6,957 nt of DNA from a virus (Duplodnaviria > Heunggongvirae > Uroviricota > Caudoviricetes), in IMG/VR virus record IMGVR_UViG_2671180473_000006; one strand, written 5' to 3'. Of this stretch, positions 945-5,955 are shown one piece after another. The notes under the pieces are model-generated. The model searched no databases. It had not been told where the DNA came from and was given only the letters and a program-made list of their open reading frames with translations. How positions within the stretch are numbered: the stretch's first letter is position 1; the number at the start of each line of letters is the position of its first letter. The position numbers and the translations under genes are program-made.

Positions 945-1004
945 TGCAGCGGGTGCTTGAGGCTATCTGTCTCAGGCATGAACACCAAAAGGCAGATAGA
1001 GAAA

Positions 1005-1072
1005 AGCCCCAGTTAACATTACGCGTCCGGCAAGACGCTTAACATTAATCTGAGGCTCAATCTATGAACGGC
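1005..1072 (-). ncRNA. sok: Candidate Sok-like antisense RNA (approximate ends)
   Basis: Inference from hok/sok architecture: minus-strand -35 TTGCCT (1102-1107) and -10 TAACCT (1079-1084) with 17-nt spacer would give an antisense transcript across the mok SD/start (1051-1066). A GCGTC/GACGC hairpin lies at 1023-1038. Boundaries are not determined. Confidence 0.25.
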
Positions 1073-1276
1073 AAATCTAGGTTAGCCTCTTACGTGCCGA
1101 AAGGCAAGGAGAAGCAGGCTATGAAGCAGCAAAAGGCGATGTTAATCGCCCTGATCGTCATCTGTTTAACCGTCATAGTGACGGCACTGGTAACGAGGAA
1201 AGACCTCTGCGAGGTACGAATTCGAACCGGCCAGACGGAGGTCGCTGTCTTCACAGCTTACGAACCTGAGGAGTAA
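1064..1276 (+). CDS. mok: Mok-like reading frame (in-frame N-terminal extension over hok)
   Basis: ATG 1064 preceded by GAGG about 8 nt upstream. The 70-aa ORF ends with the Hok sequence and its N-terminal extension resembles what I recall of chromosomal Mok proteins (KEK.AMKQ.KAM junction). Confidence 0.5.
   Translation: MNGKSRLASYVPKGKEKQAMKQQKAMLIALIVICLTVIVTALVTRKDLCEVRIRTGQTEVAVFTAYEPEE
1121..1276 (+). CDS. hok: Hok-family type I toxin (51 aa, small membrane killer protein)
   Basis: Translation MKQQKAMLIALIVICLTVIVTALVTRKDLCEVRIRTGQTEVAVFTAYEPEE is near-identical to Hok/Gef/RelF family proteins as I remember them. SD AAGGAG 1106-1111 lies 9 nt upstream. Confidence 0.85.
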   Translation: MKQQKAMLIALIVICLTVIVTALVTRKDLCEVRIRTGQTEVAVFTAYEPEE

Positions 1277-2912: not shown

Positions 2913-3293
2913 ATGACCGAGCGCATAGAATTTGTTTTACCTTACCCGCCGACGGTGAACACTTACTGGCGTCGTCGTGGCAGCACATATTTTGTATCAA
3001 AAGCCGGGGAGCGTTATCGCCGGGCAGTGGCGCTTATTGTTCGCCAGCAGCGGCTGAAATTAAGCCTGTCCGGAAGGTTGGCAATAAAAATTATTGCAGA
3101 ACCACCGGATAAGCGCCGCCGTGACCTGGACAATATTCTGAAAGCGCCGCTGGATGCGCTGACGCATGCGGGGTTGCTAATGGACGATGAGCAGTTTGAT
3201 GAAATCAATATCGTTCGTGCTCAGCCAGTATCTGGTGGACGTCTGGGGGTGAAGATTTATCCCATAATGCTTGAAGGGCAGGTCAAAAAATGA
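2913..3293 (+). CDS. rusA: Crossover junction endodeoxyribonuclease RusA (Holliday junction resolvase)
   Basis: 126 aa with the RusA pattern: LPYPPTVNTYWRRRG near the N-terminus, the acidic motif RRRDLDN, DALTHAGLLMDDEQ and GGRL. ATG directly follows the DUF968 stop. Confidence 0.9.
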   Translation: MTERIEFVLPYPPTVNTYWRRRGSTYFVSKAGERYRRAVALIVRQQRLKLSLSGRLAIKIIAEPPDKRRRDLDNILKAPLDALTHAGLLMDDEQFDEINIVRAQPVSGGRLGVKIYPIMLEGQVKK

Positions 3294-4111
3294 AACTGGA
3301 AGATTTACCGAAATACTACTCCCCAAAATCCCCCGGCCTGACTGATGCATCGGCCTCAACGTCGAAAGATGCGCTGAGTATCACTGATGTGATGGCCGCG
3401 CAGGGCATGACACAGAATCGGGCTGAGATGGGGGTTTCTGCGTTCCTTGGGAAAATGGGCATTAGTATGAATGACAGAGAGCGGGCAACAGAATTGCTGA
3501 CAGAATATGCACTCAGTCGGTGTGATCGCGTGGCGGCGTTAAGAAAACTCCCGGCAGAAATAAAACCGGCAGTGATGCGTATTATGGCTTCGTATGCGTT
3601 TGAAGATTATGCCCGTAGCGCGGCGAGCAAAAAACAGTGCCCCTGCTGTCACGGAAAAAAATTTATTGAAAGCGAGGTTTTTACAAACAAGATCCAGTAT
3701 CCGGATGGTAAGCCGCCGGTATGGGCAAAGTGTACGAAAGGTGTGTATCCGTCTTACTGGGAAGAATGGAAAAAAGTCAGGGAGGTGGTAAAAGTTGCCT
3801 GTCCGGAGTGTGGCGGAAAGGGTGAGGTTTCCACCGCCTGTAAGGATTGCCGTGGGCGTGGTGTCGCCATTCATCGTGAAGAGTCGGTAAAACGTGGTAT
3901 GCCTGTTATCAGAGACTGCCAGCGTTGTGGTGGTCGTGGCTATGAAAGACTACCATCAACGGAGGCATTTAATGCTATATGCGAGGTGACAAACCAGATA
4001 ACACGCGCGTCATGGGAAAAAACAGTTAAGAAATTTTATGATGCGCTGGTGACCCGGTTTGATATTGAAGAAGCATGGGCTGAGCGGCAGTTAAAAAAGG
4101 TAACTAGGTAA
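3290..4111 (+). CDS. Q: Late-gene antitermination protein Q (lambda Q family) with an expanded zinc-finger region
   Basis: ATGA overlap with rusA. Shares with lambda Q the motifs YSPKSP, TDVMAA.GM and TVK..YDALV. Carries four CxxCxGxG motifs (CPCCHGKK, CPECGGKG, CKDCRGRG, CQRCGGRG). Immediately followed by a PR'-like promoter. Confidence 0.85.
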   Translation: MKLEDLPKYYSPKSPGLTDASASTSKDALSITDVMAAQGMTQNRAEMGVSAFLGKMGISMNDRERATELLTEYALSRCDRVAALRKLPAEIKPAVMRIMASYAFEDYARSAASKKQCPCCHGKKFIESEVFTNKIQYPDGKPPVWAKCTKGVYPSYWEEWKKVREVVKVACPECGGKGEVSTACKDCRGRGVAIHREESVKRGMPVIRDCQRCGGRGYERLPSTEAFNAICEVTNQITRASWEKTVKKFYDALVTRFDIEEAWAERQLKKVTR

Positions 4112-4116
4112 CAAGG

Positions 4117-4156
4117 TTGATTTTTCCGGAATCTGTGGTAAATTCGTTATAACGAT
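4117..4156 (+). promoter_or_regulatory. Late promoter PR' with sigma-dependent pause element (Q-utilisation region)
   Basis: -35 TTGATT (4117-4122), 16-nt spacer, -10 TAAATT (4139-4144), then AACGATGGG at 4151-4159. The hexamer and its 6-nt spacing from the -10 match lambda PR' (TAAATT-N6-AACGAT) as I recall it. Confidence 0.7.
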
Positions 4157-4192
4157 GGGCGTTTTATGCCTGACGTTAGAAGAGTTTCTACA

Positions 4193-4216
4193 ACCCGCCG
4201 CCGAGCGGGTTTTTTA
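4193..4216 (+). terminator. tR'-like intrinsic terminator ending a short (~65 nt) PR' leader RNA
   Basis: Stem ACCCGC/GCGGGT (4193-4198 with 4205-4210), 6-nt loop, then a run of seven T (4210-4216). Confidence 0.65.
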
Positions 4217-4335
4217 TGACTGAAATCGCGTCAGTACAGTAAACGCGCTGGTGGCGGTGAATACCTGTCTTTCAGCTTGCTGGCTTTTTCGACAAGAGTT
4301 ATTGGTGTGTCACGTTAACCGGAAAAGGAAAAGAC

Positions 4336-4533
4336 ATGCTAAAACAGCAGGATATGACAGAAACCGCCAGAGTGGTGTTTAATGAATTAAGCGTTACCGA
4401 ACCGGCGACAGTCGGGGAGATAGCGCAGAATACTTACCTTTCACGCGAACGCTGCCAGTTAATACTGACCCAGCTGGTTATGGCGGGTCTGGCAGACTAT
4501 CAGTTCGGTTGTTACAGACGCCTTCCGCAGTGA
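4336..4533 (+). CDS. Small hypothetical protein (65 aa) with a winged-helix/HTH-like segment
   Basis: SD AAGGA 4325-4329, 6 nt before ATG 4336. The segment ATVGEIAQNTYLSRERCQLILTQLVMAGL resembles a DNA-binding helix-turn-helix. No family recognised. Confidence 0.5.
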   Translation: MLKQQDMTETARVVFNELSVTEPATVGEIAQNTYLSRERCQLILTQLVMAGLADYQFGCYRRLPQ

Positions 4534-4543
4534 AGGCTTTTTT
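4520..4543 (+). terminator. Intrinsic terminator overlapping the stop of the small ORF
   Basis: Stem GCCTTC/GAAGGC (4520-4525 with 4532-4537), loop CGCAGT, followed by TTTTTTATTT. Confidence 0.5.
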
Positions 4544-4560
4544 ATTTGTGGTAAATGGGC

Positions 4561-4591
4561 GGCTGGTGGGTGTTAGGGGCACCCACCAGCC
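4561..4591. repeat. Perfect 12-bp inverted repeat (GGCTGGTGGGTG / CACCCACCAGCC) with 7-nt loop; each arm contains a Chi octamer
   Basis: Read directly from the sequence. No T-tract follows on either strand, so it is not a canonical terminator. Confidence 0.8.
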
Positions 4592-4683
4592 ATCTGCTCA
4601 TGCGTTGGGTTCACAAGCAAACCTCAGGCCCACTGCTTTGCGCAAAAGCAGAATGAGCCTATCAGAGACAGGCTTAATGATCC

Positions 4684-5742
4684 ATGCTTAATACTGTAAA
4701 AATATCCAGTTGTGAGTTAATCAACGCCGACTGCCTGGAATTTATCCGGTCGTTACCCGAAAATTCTGTTGACCTGATAGTCACGGACCCGCCGTACTTT
4801 AAAGTGAAGCCTGAGGGCTGGGATAACCAGTGGAAGGGCGACGATGATTACCTGAAGTGGCTGGACCAGTGTCTGGCGCAGTTCTGGCGGGTGCTGAAAC
4901 CTGCCGGAAGTCTTTACCTGTTCTGTGGTCATCGCCTGGCATCTGATATCGAAATCATGATGCGTGAACGCTTCAGTGTGCTGAACCATATTATCTGGGC
5001 GAAGCCGTCCGGACGCTGGAACGGATGCAACAAGGAAAGCCTGCGGGCGTATTTCCCCGCCACAGAGCGCATTCTGTTCGCGGAACATTATCAGGGGCCG
5101 TATCGTCCGAAAGATGCCGGGTATGCGGCGAAGGGCAGTGCACTGAAACAGCATGTGATGGCCCCGCTGATTTCTTACTTTCGTGATGCGCGAGCTGCCC
5201 TGGGGATAACGGCAAAACAGATTGCAGATGCCACAGGAAAGAAAAACATGGTGTCGCACTGGTTCAGTGCCGGTCAGTGGCAGTTGCCGAATGAAAGCGA
5301 TTATCTGAAATTACAGGCGCTGTTTGCCCGGGTGGCAGAAGAGAAGCATCGGCGTGGTGAACTGGAAAAGCTCCACCACCAGCTGGTGGATACGTATACC
5401 TCACTGAACCGGCAGTATGCGGAGCTGCTGAGTGAATATAAACATCTGCGGCGGTATTTTGGCGTGACGGTGCAGGTGCCGTATACCGATGTGTGGACGC
5501 ATAAACCGGTGCAGTTCTATCCCGGGAAACATCCGTGCGAAAAACCGGCAGAAATGCTGCAGCAGATAATCAGCGCTAGCAGTCGTCCGGGTGACCTGAT
5601 TGCAGATTTTTTCATGGGGTTGGGTTCGACAGTGAAAGCGGCACTGGCGCTCGGGCGTCGTGCAATTGGCGTTGAGCTGGAGACTGAACGTTTTGAGCAG
5701 ACGGTTCGGGAAGTACAGGATTTAGTCAGCCAGAACGGATGA
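4684..5742 (+). CDS. DNA N6-adenine methyltransferase (beta-class, N6_N4_Mtase-like), apparently orphan
   Basis: 352 aa. DPPY (motif IV) in DLIVTDPPYF near the N-terminus and FxGxG (motif I) in DFFMGLGST near the C-terminus, i.e. beta-class order. About 140 aa inserted between them. No restriction endonuclease gene adjacent. Confidence 0.85.
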   Translation: MLNTVKISSCELINADCLEFIRSLPENSVDLIVTDPPYFKVKPEGWDNQWKGDDDYLKWLDQCLAQFWRVLKPAGSLYLFCGHRLASDIEIMMRERFSVLNHIIWAKPSGRWNGCNKESLRAYFPATERILFAEHYQGPYRPKDAGYAAKGSALKQHVMAPLISYFRDARAALGITAKQIADATGKKNMVSHWFSAGQWQLPNESDYLKLQALFARVAEEKHRRGELEKLHHQLVDTYTSLNRQYAELLSEYKHLRRYFGVTVQVPYTDVWTHKPVQFYPGKHPCEKPAEMLQQIISASSRPGDLIADFFMGLGSTVKAALALGRRAIGVELETERFEQTVREVQDLVSQNG

Positions 5743-5782
5743 TATTGAAGAATTAATTACGCGTCGTTATTATGCGGCTCCC

Positions 5783-5858
5783 GGCCCTTTAGCTCAGTGG
5801 TGAGAGCGAGCGACTCATAATCGCCAGGTCGCTGGTTCAAATCCAGCAAGGGCCACCA
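5783..5858 (+). tRNA. tRNA with CAU anticodon, ileX/ileZ-like (tRNA-Ile2, lysidine; Met not excluded)
   Basis: Manually folded cloverleaf: 7-bp acceptor GGCCCTT/AAGGGCC, D stem GCTC/GAGC, anticodon loop CTCATAA, T loop TTCAAAT, 3' CCA encoded. Closely resembles E. coli ileX as I recall it. Confidence 0.9.
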
Positions 5859-5865
5859 TCACATA

Positions 5866-5942
5866 CCGCCATTAGCTCATCAGGAAAGAGCGCCAGCCTT
5901 CGAAGCTGGCTGCGCGGGGTTCAAGTCCCCGATGGCGGTCCA
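5866..5942 (+). tRNA. tRNA-Arg, anticodon UCG (reads CGA/CGG)
   Basis: Manually folded: acceptor CCGCCAT/ATGGCGG, anticodon stem CCAGC/GCTGG with loop CTTCGAA, T stem CGGGG/CCCCG, CCA encoded. Unusual C1-G72 first pair. Confidence 0.8.
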
Positions 5943-5955
5943 TTATCTGCATCAT

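What the first reader, a model, noticed from the sequence alone, without database searches (positions are those of the whole stretch)
4336..5742. Small winged-helix-like ORF plus orphan beta-class N6-adenine methyltransferase as Q-dependent cargo
Both genes lie between PR'/tR' and the tRNA cluster, so they should be expressed only by Q-antiterminated late transcription. A 65-aa HTH-like protein directly upstream of a methyltransferase resembles the controller-protein arrangement of restriction-modification systems, although its HTH is not obviously Xre-like. No endonuclease is present, so this is an orphan (anti-restriction or epigenetic) methylase. The ~140-aa segment between motif IV (DPPY) and motif I (FxGxG) presumably determines target specificity.
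Basis: partly seen in the sequence, partly recalled or inferred. Interest (0 to 1): 0.45.

Follow-up and report, generated by a model that had tools for sequence, protein, structure and literature searches.

The report
Prophage non-specific adenine methylase with partner gene
This is a common late-gene module of lambda-like prophages: a close relative of the known non-specific adenine methyltransferase M.EcoGII, preceded by a small winged-helix gene that always travels with it and by a conserved folded RNA leader, so the enzyme is ordinary but its control is not yet understood.

Summary
Both ORFs are real and lie at the stated coordinates. The 352-aa protein is not a new orphan methylase with a hidden target. 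[quoted passage not shown] It carries one unusual substitution, S313L in motif I. The 65-aa ORF is under purifying selection and models as a minimal winged helix. Every homologue examined, down to 42% identity, sits directly upstream of this methylase family. It is not like an R-M controller protein: it has no Xre-type HTH, there is no endonuclease, and a terminator hairpin holding its stop codon separates the two genes. In addition, 21 of 78 species-level loci have the methylase without it. The inverted repeat at 4561-4591 is helix P2 of a conserved, roughly 130-nt structured leader fused to the methylase start codon. That leader is supported by covariation and has no Rfam family. Expression driven mainly by Q is plausible from the layout (Q, PR'-like promoter, tR', a second terminator) but was not shown. 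Verdict: a known kind of module, with an uncharacterised partner gene and leader RNA worth testing.

The parts
3290..4111 (+). Q-type antiterminator gene (273 aa), upstream context
   Evidence: Pfam PF03589 Antiterm E=1.6e-53; PHROG anti-termination protein Q-like.
4117..4156 (+). PR'-like late promoter: TTGATT (4117-4122), 16 nt, extended -10 TGgTAAATT (4136-4144), then AACGAT (4151-4156)
   Evidence: Read from the sequence. It falls below the scan threshold (8 of 12 matches). The resemblance to lambda PR' (TAAATT, 6 nt, AACGAT pause element) comes from my memory, not from a tool.
4192..4220 (+). tR'-like intrinsic terminator (AACCCGC...GCGGGTT + T6)
   Evidence: Terminator scan. RNA fold of 4150-4225 gives z = -2.9. 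Homology to phages with other Q types starts here.
4276..4313 (+). Conserved 'block U' upstream of the wH gene: CTTGCTG-N12-(C/A)AGAGTTAY-TGTRTG; function unknown (promoter, operator or 5'UTR element)
   Evidence: Conserved from E. coli to Xenorhabdus and Photorhabdus. Present in 62 of 65 wH+ loci and 0 of 26 wH- loci. No consensus RNA fold. No sigma-70 match above threshold.
4336..4533 (+). 65-aa winged-helix protein gene (PHROG 331; named 'TrmB family transcriptional regulator' by NCBI)
4520..4546 (+). Terminator-like hairpin t2 (GCCTTC-CGCAGT-GAAGGC + T6); the wH stop codon TGA (4531-4533) lies across the loop and the 3' stem
   Evidence: Terminator scan. The hairpin is kept by compensatory changes in Klebsiella, Salmonella and the Stx2c phage. 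A hairpin holding the stop codon is also present in Xenorhabdus and Photorhabdus. On its own it is thermodynamically unremarkable (z = -0.3).
4553..4683 (+). Conserved structured leader of the methylase mRNA. No canonical Shine-Dalgarno before the ATG.
   Evidence: Alignments A2 and A4. RNAalifold. Pair counts: 88.6% of cells paired against 29-44% in slid controls, 17 pairs with double changes, 0 of 500 shuffles as good. Covariance model R1 gives one hit per locus, always abutting the methylase ATG, at 85-177 bits. MFE -63.4 kcal/mol, z = -4.9. No Rfam family.
4684..5742 (+). M.EcoGI/GII-family beta-class N6-adenine DNA (and RNA) methyltransferase, 352 aa
   Evidence: PF01555 E=8e-42. 324/349 identical to M.EcoGII. 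Phage 1720a-02, which the M.EcoGII paper names as a close relative, is 94.7% identical in DNA.
5086..5463 (+). Central segment (about residues 135-260): HTH-containing four-helix domain plus charged helical linker
   Evidence: It aligns without gaps to M.EcoGII residues 135-260. The domain description comes from the SUPREM paper. There is a weak Pfam HTH_3 hit at residues 167-195.
5620..5622 (+). Codon TTG = Leu313 in motif I (FMG-L-G); every other family member examined has Ser (TCG)
   Evidence: S in 108 of 108 aligned homologues. 54 GSG against 1 GLG in viral contigs, and that one (L124) is 100% identical to the window. CcrM has Val at this position.
5745..6032 (+). Promoter-like site (5745-5773) and tRNA cluster Met/Ile(CAT)-Arg(TCG)-Arg(TCT) that ends the module
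   Evidence: ARAGORN, Rfam tRNA, promoter scan TTGAAG-17-TATTAT.

Best explanation
The region is the late-operon anti-restriction module of a lambdoid, non-Stx prophage.

Its core is an M.EcoGII-family methyltransferase. By 93% identity to the characterised enzyme, it should methylate adenines in essentially any sequence context. Such an enzyme is toxic to the host, so it must stay off in the lysogen.

The layout provides several layers of insulation. Transcripts from the PR'-like promoter should stop at tR' (4192-4220). Read-through, or any transcription that starts at the wH cassette, should meet a second terminator-like hairpin (4520-4546). The methylase ORF itself is preceded by a roughly 130-nt, five-helix structured leader that lacks a normal Shine-Dalgarno sequence.

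After induction, Q-modified RNA polymerase would read through both terminators. The methylase would then be made late and would methylate replicating phage DNA before packaging, so that the DNA is protected from restriction in the next host.

The 65-aa winged-helix gene is a separate, mobile cassette made of block U, the ORF and the stop-codon hairpin. It is inserted between tR' and the leader in about 70% of species-level loci, and it was never found away from this methylase family. I read it as a dedicated nucleic-acid-binding accessory of the methylase that tunes its expression or its action. I do not read it as an R-M controller protein.

Shown here: gene identities, the winged-helix fold, linkage of the two genes, purifying selection, and the conserved RNA structure. 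Taken from the literature on M.EcoGII: non-specific activity, silence in lysogens and toxicity. Inferred: Q dependence, the anti-restriction role in this particular phage, the function of the leader, and the function of the wH protein.
For: Identity of the enzyme. It is 324/349 identical to M.EcoGII (sequence from the supplement of PMC11551740). The M.EcoGII paper describes a large prophage-borne family that includes phage 1720a-02, which is 94.7% identical to the window in DNA. M.EcoGI and M.EcoGII are listed as non-specific orphan methylases. A 2025 review describes them as silent in lysogens and toxic, and pairs them with Mu Mom.

Layout. The same order, Q then wH then methylase then lysis genes, appears behind three different Q families in Klebsiella and Salmonella and in distant relatives.

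Linkage. 63 of 65 viral contigs with the wH gene have the full methylase. 54 of 78 species loci with the methylase have the wH gene. wH homologues at 42% and 53% identity are still directly upstream of an N6_N4 methylase.

Selection. The wH gene has dN/dS 0.04. Synonymous sites are saturated between E. coli and Klebsiella or Salmonella, yet the leader stays 72-84% identical.

Leader. The covariance model hits once per locus, always at the methylase ATG, including 21 loci that lack the wH gene.
Against: No expression or methylation data exist for this element. The S313L change at a family-invariant motif-I residue could weaken or abolish SAM binding, although CcrM carries Val at that position. 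The PR' assignment rests on a sub-threshold promoter match and on my memory of lambda PR'. Block U could be a promoter that makes the wH gene independent of Q. The leader occurs without the wH gene, so the wH protein cannot be essential for the leader's function. G.U pairs exceed A.C mismatches by only 102 to 57, so the strand assignment of the structure is supported only modestly. The t2 hairpin alone is not exceptional thermodynamically (z = -0.3), and its T-run is weaker in other taxa.
Confidence: 0.65

Rival explanations
1. The small protein is a controller (C-protein-like) transcription factor. It binds DNA, for example the 4561-4591 repeat, and switches the methylase gene on or off.
For: It is a small nucleic-acid-binding fold encoded immediately upstream and is strictly linked to the methylase. 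A conserved non-coding block (block U) sits upstream of its own gene and could be an autoregulatory operator.
Against: It has no Xre-type HTH; the best Pfam hits are sub-threshold winged-HTH families. No endonuclease is present. A conserved terminator hairpin separates the two genes. The 4561-4591 repeat covaries as an RNA helix, whereas an operator would keep its sequence. Block U is not palindromic. The methylase and leader are maintained without the small gene in 21 of 78 loci. The protein's net charge is about -1.
Confidence: 0.15
2. Com/Mom-like post-transcriptional control. The wH protein binds the structured leader RNA and unlocks, or locks, translation of the toxic methylase. Phage Mu Com does this for mom.
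For: The modification enzyme is toxic and late-expressed, and a review explicitly pairs it with Mom. A small ORF lies directly upstream. The leader is conserved, covaries and has no canonical Shine-Dalgarno. Winged-helix domains can bind RNA; SelB winged helices are among the structural neighbours.
Against: The leader is equally conserved in loci that lack the wH gene. In Photorhabdus and Xenorhabdus (wH present), the leader is reduced to P2 plus its flanks, and the P2 loop sequence varies. The most distant wH-positive loci have a plain terminator plus a Shine-Dalgarno instead of the leader. The protein is not a zinc finger like Com.
Confidence: 0.12
3. The wH protein acts on the product rather than on expression. 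It would read or shield 6mA-rich DNA, or serve as a partner subunit of the methylase. For example, it could protect hypermethylated phage DNA from 6mA-dependent Type IV nucleases, or restrain methylation of host nucleic acids.
For: Linkage is one-way and strict: wH is never found without this methylase, but the methylase is found without wH. Winged-helix domains of DpnI and HhiV4I sense 6mA, and wH-nuclease fusions cut M.EcoGII-modified DNA. The best sequence and fold matches include the winged-helix dimerisation domains of SAM-dependent methyltransferases, at non-significant scores. It is a minimal, stand-alone winged helix of the same size as Z-alpha domains.
Confidence: 0.1
4. This particular copy is a decaying or attenuated remnant. 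The S313L change in motif I inactivates the methylase, so the module does nothing in this prophage.
For: Leu313 is unique against 108 of 108 homologues and against 54 viral contigs. Leaky expression of a non-specific methylase is toxic, so loss-of-function alleles could be selected.
Against: It is the only family-unique substitution in 352 residues, and the ORF, leader and wH gene are all intact. An active beta-class enzyme, CcrM, has Val at this position. A sequencing error cannot be excluded, because the only other record with Leu is 100% identical to the window and may be the same genome.
Confidence: 0.2

Closest known systems
M.EcoGII / M.EcoGI (E. coli O104:H4 C227-11 prophage methyltransferases; Murray et al. 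2018, PMC5778455)
   Same: 93% amino-acid identity over the full length. Same beta-class motif order, same central HTH domain and charged linker, same prophage setting, orphan status, and membership of the same very large enterobacterial prophage family.
   Different: 352 aa against 349 aa. About 25 substitutions, including the unique S313L in motif I. Activity was not tested here. The published work does not describe the upstream winged-helix gene or the structured leader, as far as the papers I read show.
Phage Mu com-mom
   Same: A toxic DNA-modification enzyme that is silent in the lysogen and made late. A small ORF lies immediately upstream. A structured RNA precedes the start codon of the modification gene. 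The review pairs Mom with M.EcoGII.
   Different: Com is a zinc-finger protein, whereas this protein is a winged helix. The chemistry differs (Mom versus N6-methylation). The leader here exists without the small gene in many loci. No evidence yet that the small protein touches the RNA.
Controller (C) proteins of Type II restriction-modification systems
   Same: A small DNA-binding-type protein encoded just upstream of a methyltransferase gene.
   Different: C proteins are Xre-type HTH dimers that bind palindromic C-boxes and control an endonuclease. Here the fold is a winged helix, no endonuclease or C-box-like palindrome is present, and a terminator lies between the genes.
Minimal stand-alone winged-helix domains (Z-alpha of PKZ/ZBP1/ADAR1; N-terminal winged helices of IclR/MarR/ArsR regulators; SelB winged helices)
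   Different: Sequence identity is only 5-25%. In a hand alignment to the ADAR1 Z-alpha sequence as I remember it, the hallmark Asn and Tyr of helix 3 correspond to Gln41 and Thr45. No effector or dimerisation domain is present.

Membership tests
M.EcoGI/GII family of non-specific beta-class N6-adenine methyltransferases | Beta-class motif order: motif IV (DPPY) near the N-terminus and motif I (FxGxG) near the C-terminus | tested here: met
   DPPY at residues 35-38 and FMGLG at 310-314. PF01555 E=8e-42 spans residues 29-340.
M.EcoGI/GII family of non-specific beta-class N6-adenine methyltransferases | Close full-length sequence identity to the characterised enzyme | tested here: met
   324/349 (93%) identical with 2 gap positions. 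The reference sequence was machine-read from a PDF supplement, so a few mismatches may be reading errors.
M.EcoGI/GII family of non-specific beta-class N6-adenine methyltransferases | Central four-helix HTH domain plus the highly charged linker, which is absent from the site-specific relative M.PflMI | tested here: met
   Residues 135-260 align without gaps to M.EcoGII, including EEKHRRGELEKLHHQLV...EYKHLRR. There is a weak HTH_3 hit at residues 167-195.
M.EcoGI/GII family of non-specific beta-class N6-adenine methyltransferases | Intact SAM-binding motif I as in all family members (F-x-G-S-G) | tested here: inconclusive
   The window has Leu313 where 108 of 108 homologues have Ser. CcrM, an active enzyme, has Val at this position.
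M.EcoGI/GII family of non-specific beta-class N6-adenine methyltransferases | Methylates adenine in any sequence context; silent in the lysogen; toxic when expressed | not testable with these tools
   Known for M.EcoGII only. This needs a methylome and expression experiments.
R-M controller (C) proteins | Xre-type helix-turn-helix fold | tested here: not met
   No HTH_3 or HTH_31 hit for the 65-aa protein. AF2 gives a winged helix.
R-M controller (C) proteins | Cognate restriction endonuclease in the same locus | tested here: not met
   The neighbours are Q, tRNAs and lysis genes in the window and in related loci.
R-M controller (C) proteins | Palindromic C-box operator upstream of the C gene; the C gene co-transcribed with its target | tested here: not met
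   Conserved block U is not palindromic. A terminator-like hairpin separates the wH gene from the methylase.
TrmB / MarR-type winged-HTH transcription regulators (the name NCBI gives the small protein) | Score above the curated family threshold | tested here: not met
   TrmB 18 bits against a 25.6 cut-off, MarR_2 14.7 against 27. NCBIfam gives no hit above cut-off.
TrmB / MarR-type winged-HTH transcription regulators (the name NCBI gives the small protein) | Winged-helix fold | tested here: met
Z-alpha (Z-DNA/Z-RNA binding) domains | Conserved helix-3 Asn and Tyr and wing Trp that contact Z-form nucleic acid | tested here: inconclusive
Mu Com/Mom-type translational control | Structured RNA immediately upstream of the modification gene's start codon | tested here: met
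   Five helices supported by covariation, ending 8 nt before the ATG.
Mu Com/Mom-type translational control | The small upstream-encoded protein binds that RNA and activates translation | not testable with these tools
   Counter-indication: the leader is conserved in 21 loci that lack the small gene.
Any curated RNA family (Rfam 15) for the leader | Match to a covariance model | tested here: not met
   No + strand hit in 4553-4683 at E<=1. The only hit there is a minus-strand P26 match at 24 bits against a gathering score of 36.

The most novel reading that the evidence does not exclude
The winged-helix protein and the covarying roughly 130-nt leader together form a previously undescribed, dedicated control or partner system for non-specific adenine methyltransferases. 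It could be a Com/Mom-like RNA-level switch, or a writer-reader pair in which the free winged helix recognises or shields 6mA-saturated phage DNA. On this reading the leader is a new cis-regulatory RNA class of enterobacterial prophages.
Probability: 0.2. Interest if true: 0.6.

Novelty: new member of a known kind. Interest (0 to 1): 0.35.

Why it matters
M.EcoGII is a widely used reagent, for example in chromatin footprinting and RNA-methylation tools. It is also the textbook example of a non-specific phage methylase. How phages keep such a toxic enzyme silent, and then deploy it, has not been worked out.

This locus shows that the natural gene comes with three conserved elements. The first is a double-terminator arrangement. 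The second is a structured leader that is conserved where synonymous sites are saturated. The third is a small winged-helix gene that occurs only next to this enzyme family.

Each element is directly testable and could explain both the silencing and the anti-restriction strategy. The enzyme itself is a routine family member, and nothing here changes what is known about its chemistry.

Tried and rejected
(1) Dam (GATC) enzyme: rejected. The motif order is beta-class and the closest characterised relative is M.EcoGII, not Dam.

(2) ORF 4509-4691 (60 aa) in the spacer: rejected. It has no family hits, and indels break the frame across species.

(3) A conserved uORF starting at the invariant AUG, GUG or UUG at 4555: rejected as a coding feature. 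Its length ranges from 3 to more than 43 codons and the peptide is not conserved.

(4) A pseudoknot between the P5 loop (AUCAG) and CUGAU at -7 to -3: 82% of cells pair, but covariation is no better than in shuffles. Inconclusive.

(5) Block U as a sigma-70, sigma-54, sigma-E or sigma-28 promoter, a LexA, CRP, IHF or DnaA site, or an RNA hairpin: there was no convincing match by eye, no scan hit, and RNAalifold found no consensus structure on either strand. Left unexplained.

(6) Known RNA family for the leader: none in Rfam at E<=1. A literature search for such a motif found nothing specific.

(7) Defence-system membership: PADLOC gives only generic Type II and orphan methylase models, plus a meaningless 14-bit hit for the small protein.

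(8) DpnI-like 6mA-sensing winged helix: no sequence or top-ranked fold match.

(9) Prophage sRNA literature (AgvB/EcOnc, StxS): nothing was found that maps to this spacer.

(10) Methylase mentions in Stx-phage genomics papers concern other methylases, or gave no information on this gene.
Full report
WHAT IS IN THE WINDOW. The window is the nin-to-late-region segment of a lambdoid prophage. In order it holds:
- a hok/sok toxin-antitoxin locus;
- a DUF968/HNH gene;
- rusA;
- a 273-aa Q antiterminator (PF03589);
- the two ORFs of the finding;
- three tRNAs;
- the prophage sRNA STnc100.

No stx genes follow. The closest complete E. coli genome is 96.8% identical and continues into iraM, a SASA esterase gene and lysis genes. 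The best species-level match for the methylase is Escherichia albertii at 96%. One IMG/VR contig is 100% identical over 4192-5760.

CHECK OF THE OBSERVATION. Both ORFs are at the stated coordinates. The large one is a beta-class amino-methyltransferase: PF01555 at E=8e-42, DPPY at residues 35-38 and FxGxG at 310-314. Its solved relatives are M.BceJIV-like enzymes, RsrI, CcrM, MboIIA and DpnA.

The small ORF has a good Shine-Dalgarno sequence. It gives only sub-threshold TrmB and MarR hits but a strong PHROG 331 match, a family of unknown function. AlphaFold models it as a textbook winged helix with pLDDT 88.6.

It is a real gene. Homologues at 81-100% identity occur in Escherichia, Shigella, Salmonella, Klebsiella, Citrobacter and Buttiauxella. 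dN/dS against the Salmonella allele is 0.04. The family is narrow: an exhaustive search of 1.84 billion cluster representatives found 61 at E<=0.001, many of them fragments.

IDENTITY OF THE METHYLASE. The M.EcoGII paper describes a very large family of prophage methylases in E. coli and names phage 1720a-02 as carrying a very similar enzyme. That phage is among the best DNA hits of this window, at 94.7%. I took the M.EcoGII sequence from the supplement of the SUPREM paper. The window protein is 324/349 identical to it, with the central domain and the charged linker aligning without gaps.

M.EcoGI and M.EcoGII are recorded as non-specific orphan methylases. [quoted passage not shown] So the enzyme is a routine member of a known family. 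In that enzyme the segment is a four-helix HTH domain plus a charged linker, credited with non-specific binding.

One detail is unusual. Leu313 replaces a Ser that is invariant in 108 of 108 aligned homologues, through a single TCG-to-TTG change. Among viral contigs the count is 54 GSG against 1 GLG, and that one contig is identical to the window. CcrM has Val at this position, so the change may attenuate the enzyme rather than kill it. I cannot decide this with the tools available.

TRANSCRIPTIONAL LAYOUT. Six bases after the Q stop codon lies TTGATT, then 16 nt, then TGgTAAATT, then 6 nt, then AACGAT (4117-4156). From memory this looks like lambda PR' with its pause element. It scores below the scanner's threshold. 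A strong intrinsic terminator follows at 4192-4220. Homology to phages that carry other Q types begins at this point.

A second terminator-like hairpin at 4520-4546 holds the small ORF's stop codon across its loop and 3' stem. It is kept by compensatory changes in Klebsiella, Salmonella and an Stx2c phage. A hairpin around the stop codon is also present in Xenorhabdus and Photorhabdus. The methylase is therefore insulated twice from upstream transcription. This fits a toxic gene that is read only by antiterminated polymerase, but no expression data were available.

The tRNA cluster has its own promoter-like site at 5745-5773.

THE SPACER IS A CONSERVED STRUCTURED LEADER. The roughly 130 nt between the genes is at least as conserved as the coding DNA. 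Window versus Klebsiella, Salmonella or the Stx2c phage gives 72-84% identity, while synonymous sites in both genes are saturated or nearly so.

I fetched one methylase locus per species, 80 loci from Escherichia to Yersinia, Serratia, Providencia, Xenorhabdus and Photorhabdus. In these and the loci fetched earlier, a profile of the leader hits 63 of 91 loci, always ending exactly at the methylase ATG. An alignment of 58 distinct leaders folds into:
- a long-range helix P1 that encloses the hairpins P2 and P3;
- two further hairpins, P4 and P5, downstream of P1 (plus my own inspection).

For this structure 88.6% of cells are paired, against 29-44% when partners are slid by 1-3 columns. Seventeen pairs show changes on both sides, against 5-11 in the slid controls. 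No shuffle out of 500 reaches the observed values. In P2 alone, 9 of 12 pairs carry compensatory changes.

A covariance model built from this structure finds one hit per locus at 85-177 bits, with weak hits in Photorhabdus. The window's leader folds at -63.4 kcal/mol, z = -4.9. G.U pairs exceed A.C mismatches 102 to 57, which gives modest support for the + strand, meaning the mRNA. There is no Rfam family for it.

The ATG is preceded by CUGAUC(C/U) and not by a canonical Shine-Dalgarno. My own inference is that UGAUC could pair with GAUCA in the 16S rRNA 3' tail.

In Photorhabdus and Xenorhabdus only the 5' flank, P2 and its 3' flank survive. In the most distant loci a P2-like hairpin is followed by a U-run and a normal Shine-Dalgarno, which makes it a plain terminator. 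The common denominator is a stable hairpin immediately upstream of the methylase.

LINKAGE OF THE WINGED-HELIX GENE. Of 78 informative species loci, 54 carry the wH gene directly upstream of the methylase, and 21 carry the full leader and methylase without it. In the opposite direction, 63 of 65 viral contigs with the wH gene and enough downstream DNA have the full methylase, one has a partial gene and one has none. wH homologues at only 42% and 53% identity still sit between a Q gene and an N6_N4 methylase, or directly upstream of one. So the small gene depends on the methylase, but the methylase does not depend on the small gene.

The wH gene brings its own conserved upstream block, CTTGCTG-N12-CAGAGTTAY-TGTRTG (window 4276-4313). 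This block is present in 62 of 65 wH+ loci and in none of 26 wH- loci. It has no consensus RNA fold and no convincing sigma-70 match. In loci without the cassette, heterogeneous genes or Q itself lie upstream of the leader. I therefore see block U, the ORF and the stop-codon hairpin as a discrete cassette inserted between tR' and the leader.

Cys40 and Cys59 are invariant among the close homologues. Cys40 persists in most distant ones. The net charge is about -1.

VERDICT ON THE CONTROLLER ANALOGY. It fails each testable criterion. There is no Xre HTH, no endonuclease and no palindromic box. A terminator lies between the genes. The proposed operator is an RNA helix. The target gene is maintained without the supposed controller. 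What does survive is a strong functional link between the two genes.

MOST LIKELY MECHANISM. This is a late, Q-unlocked anti-restriction methylase. In the lysogen it is kept silent by two terminators and a structured leader. The wH protein is a dedicated accessory. I rank its possible roles as follows: a regulator of methylase expression at the DNA or RNA level; then a partner of the methylase or a reader of its 6mA product; then an unrelated passenger gene. None of these is shown.

NOVELTY. The enzyme and its general biology are known. I did not find the wH partner, block U or the leader RNA described in the papers I could search or in Rfam. These are modest but testable leads.

Noticed in passing
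window 4553-4683: The spacer upstream of the methylase is a conserved leader of about 130 nt with five helices. It is supported by covariation across more than 50 species, always abuts the methylase ATG, and has no Rfam family. It looks like an undescribed cis-regulatory RNA of M.EcoGII-family genes.
   Followed up: yes
window 4276-4313: A conserved non-coding block, CTTGCTG-N12-(C/A)AGAGTTAY-TGTRTG, lies upstream of the winged-helix gene. It is present in 62 of 65 loci with that gene and in 0 of 26 without it, from E. coli to Xenorhabdus. No promoter, operator or RNA-fold assignment could be made.
   Followed up: partly
window 5620-5622: Codon TTG (Leu313) replaces the family-invariant Ser in SAM-binding motif I of the methylase. 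It could be an attenuating mutation or a sequencing error. The only other record that carries it, IMG/VR contig L124, is 100% identical to the window.
   Followed up: partly
window 4520-4546: The stop codon of the small ORF sits inside a terminator-like hairpin, and this arrangement is conserved in all taxa examined. A ribosome terminating there would melt the hairpin, so translation of the small ORF could modulate read-through into the methylase leader.
   Followed up: partly
window 951-1276: A hok/sok type I toxin-antitoxin locus: the Rfam sok model scores 112 bits at 951-1126, and a Hok/Gef ORF lies at 1064-1276.
   Followed up: no
window 6109-6298: A full-length match to the prophage sRNA STnc100 (Rfam RF02076, 123.6 bits) lies downstream of the tRNA cluster and its terminator (6047-6072).
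   Followed up: no
window 5745-5773: A promoter-like site (TTGAAG-17-TATTAT) lies between the methylase stop codon and the first tRNA. The tRNA cluster may therefore be transcribed independently of the late operon. The first tRNA (anticodon CAT) is called Met by ARAGORN but is annotated tRNA-Ile in related genomes.
   Followed up: no
window 6489-6957: A 367-nt run of N (6489-6855) is followed by a sequence that by eye repeats the stretch starting at about 5990: the 3' half of tRNA-Arg(TCT), its terminator and the downstream bases. This suggests a scaffold join or a duplicated tRNA region.
   Followed up: partly
window 4151-4220: The PR'-like promoter and tR' should produce a constitutive short RNA of about 70 nt, analogous to lambda 6S RNA or StxS. 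The 4150-4225 segment folds with z = -2.9.
   Followed up: no
L010 1629-2054 (Stx2c phage) and L008 4424-4843 (Salmonella): Some relatives carry an extra ORF of about 140 aa between Q/tR' and the winged-helix cassette (a lipoprotein-like ORF in the Stx2c phage). This stretch appears to be a hotspot for cargo insertion. The Stx2c phages also carry a strongly diverged allele of the winged-helix protein (dN/dS 0.48 against the window).
   Followed up: no
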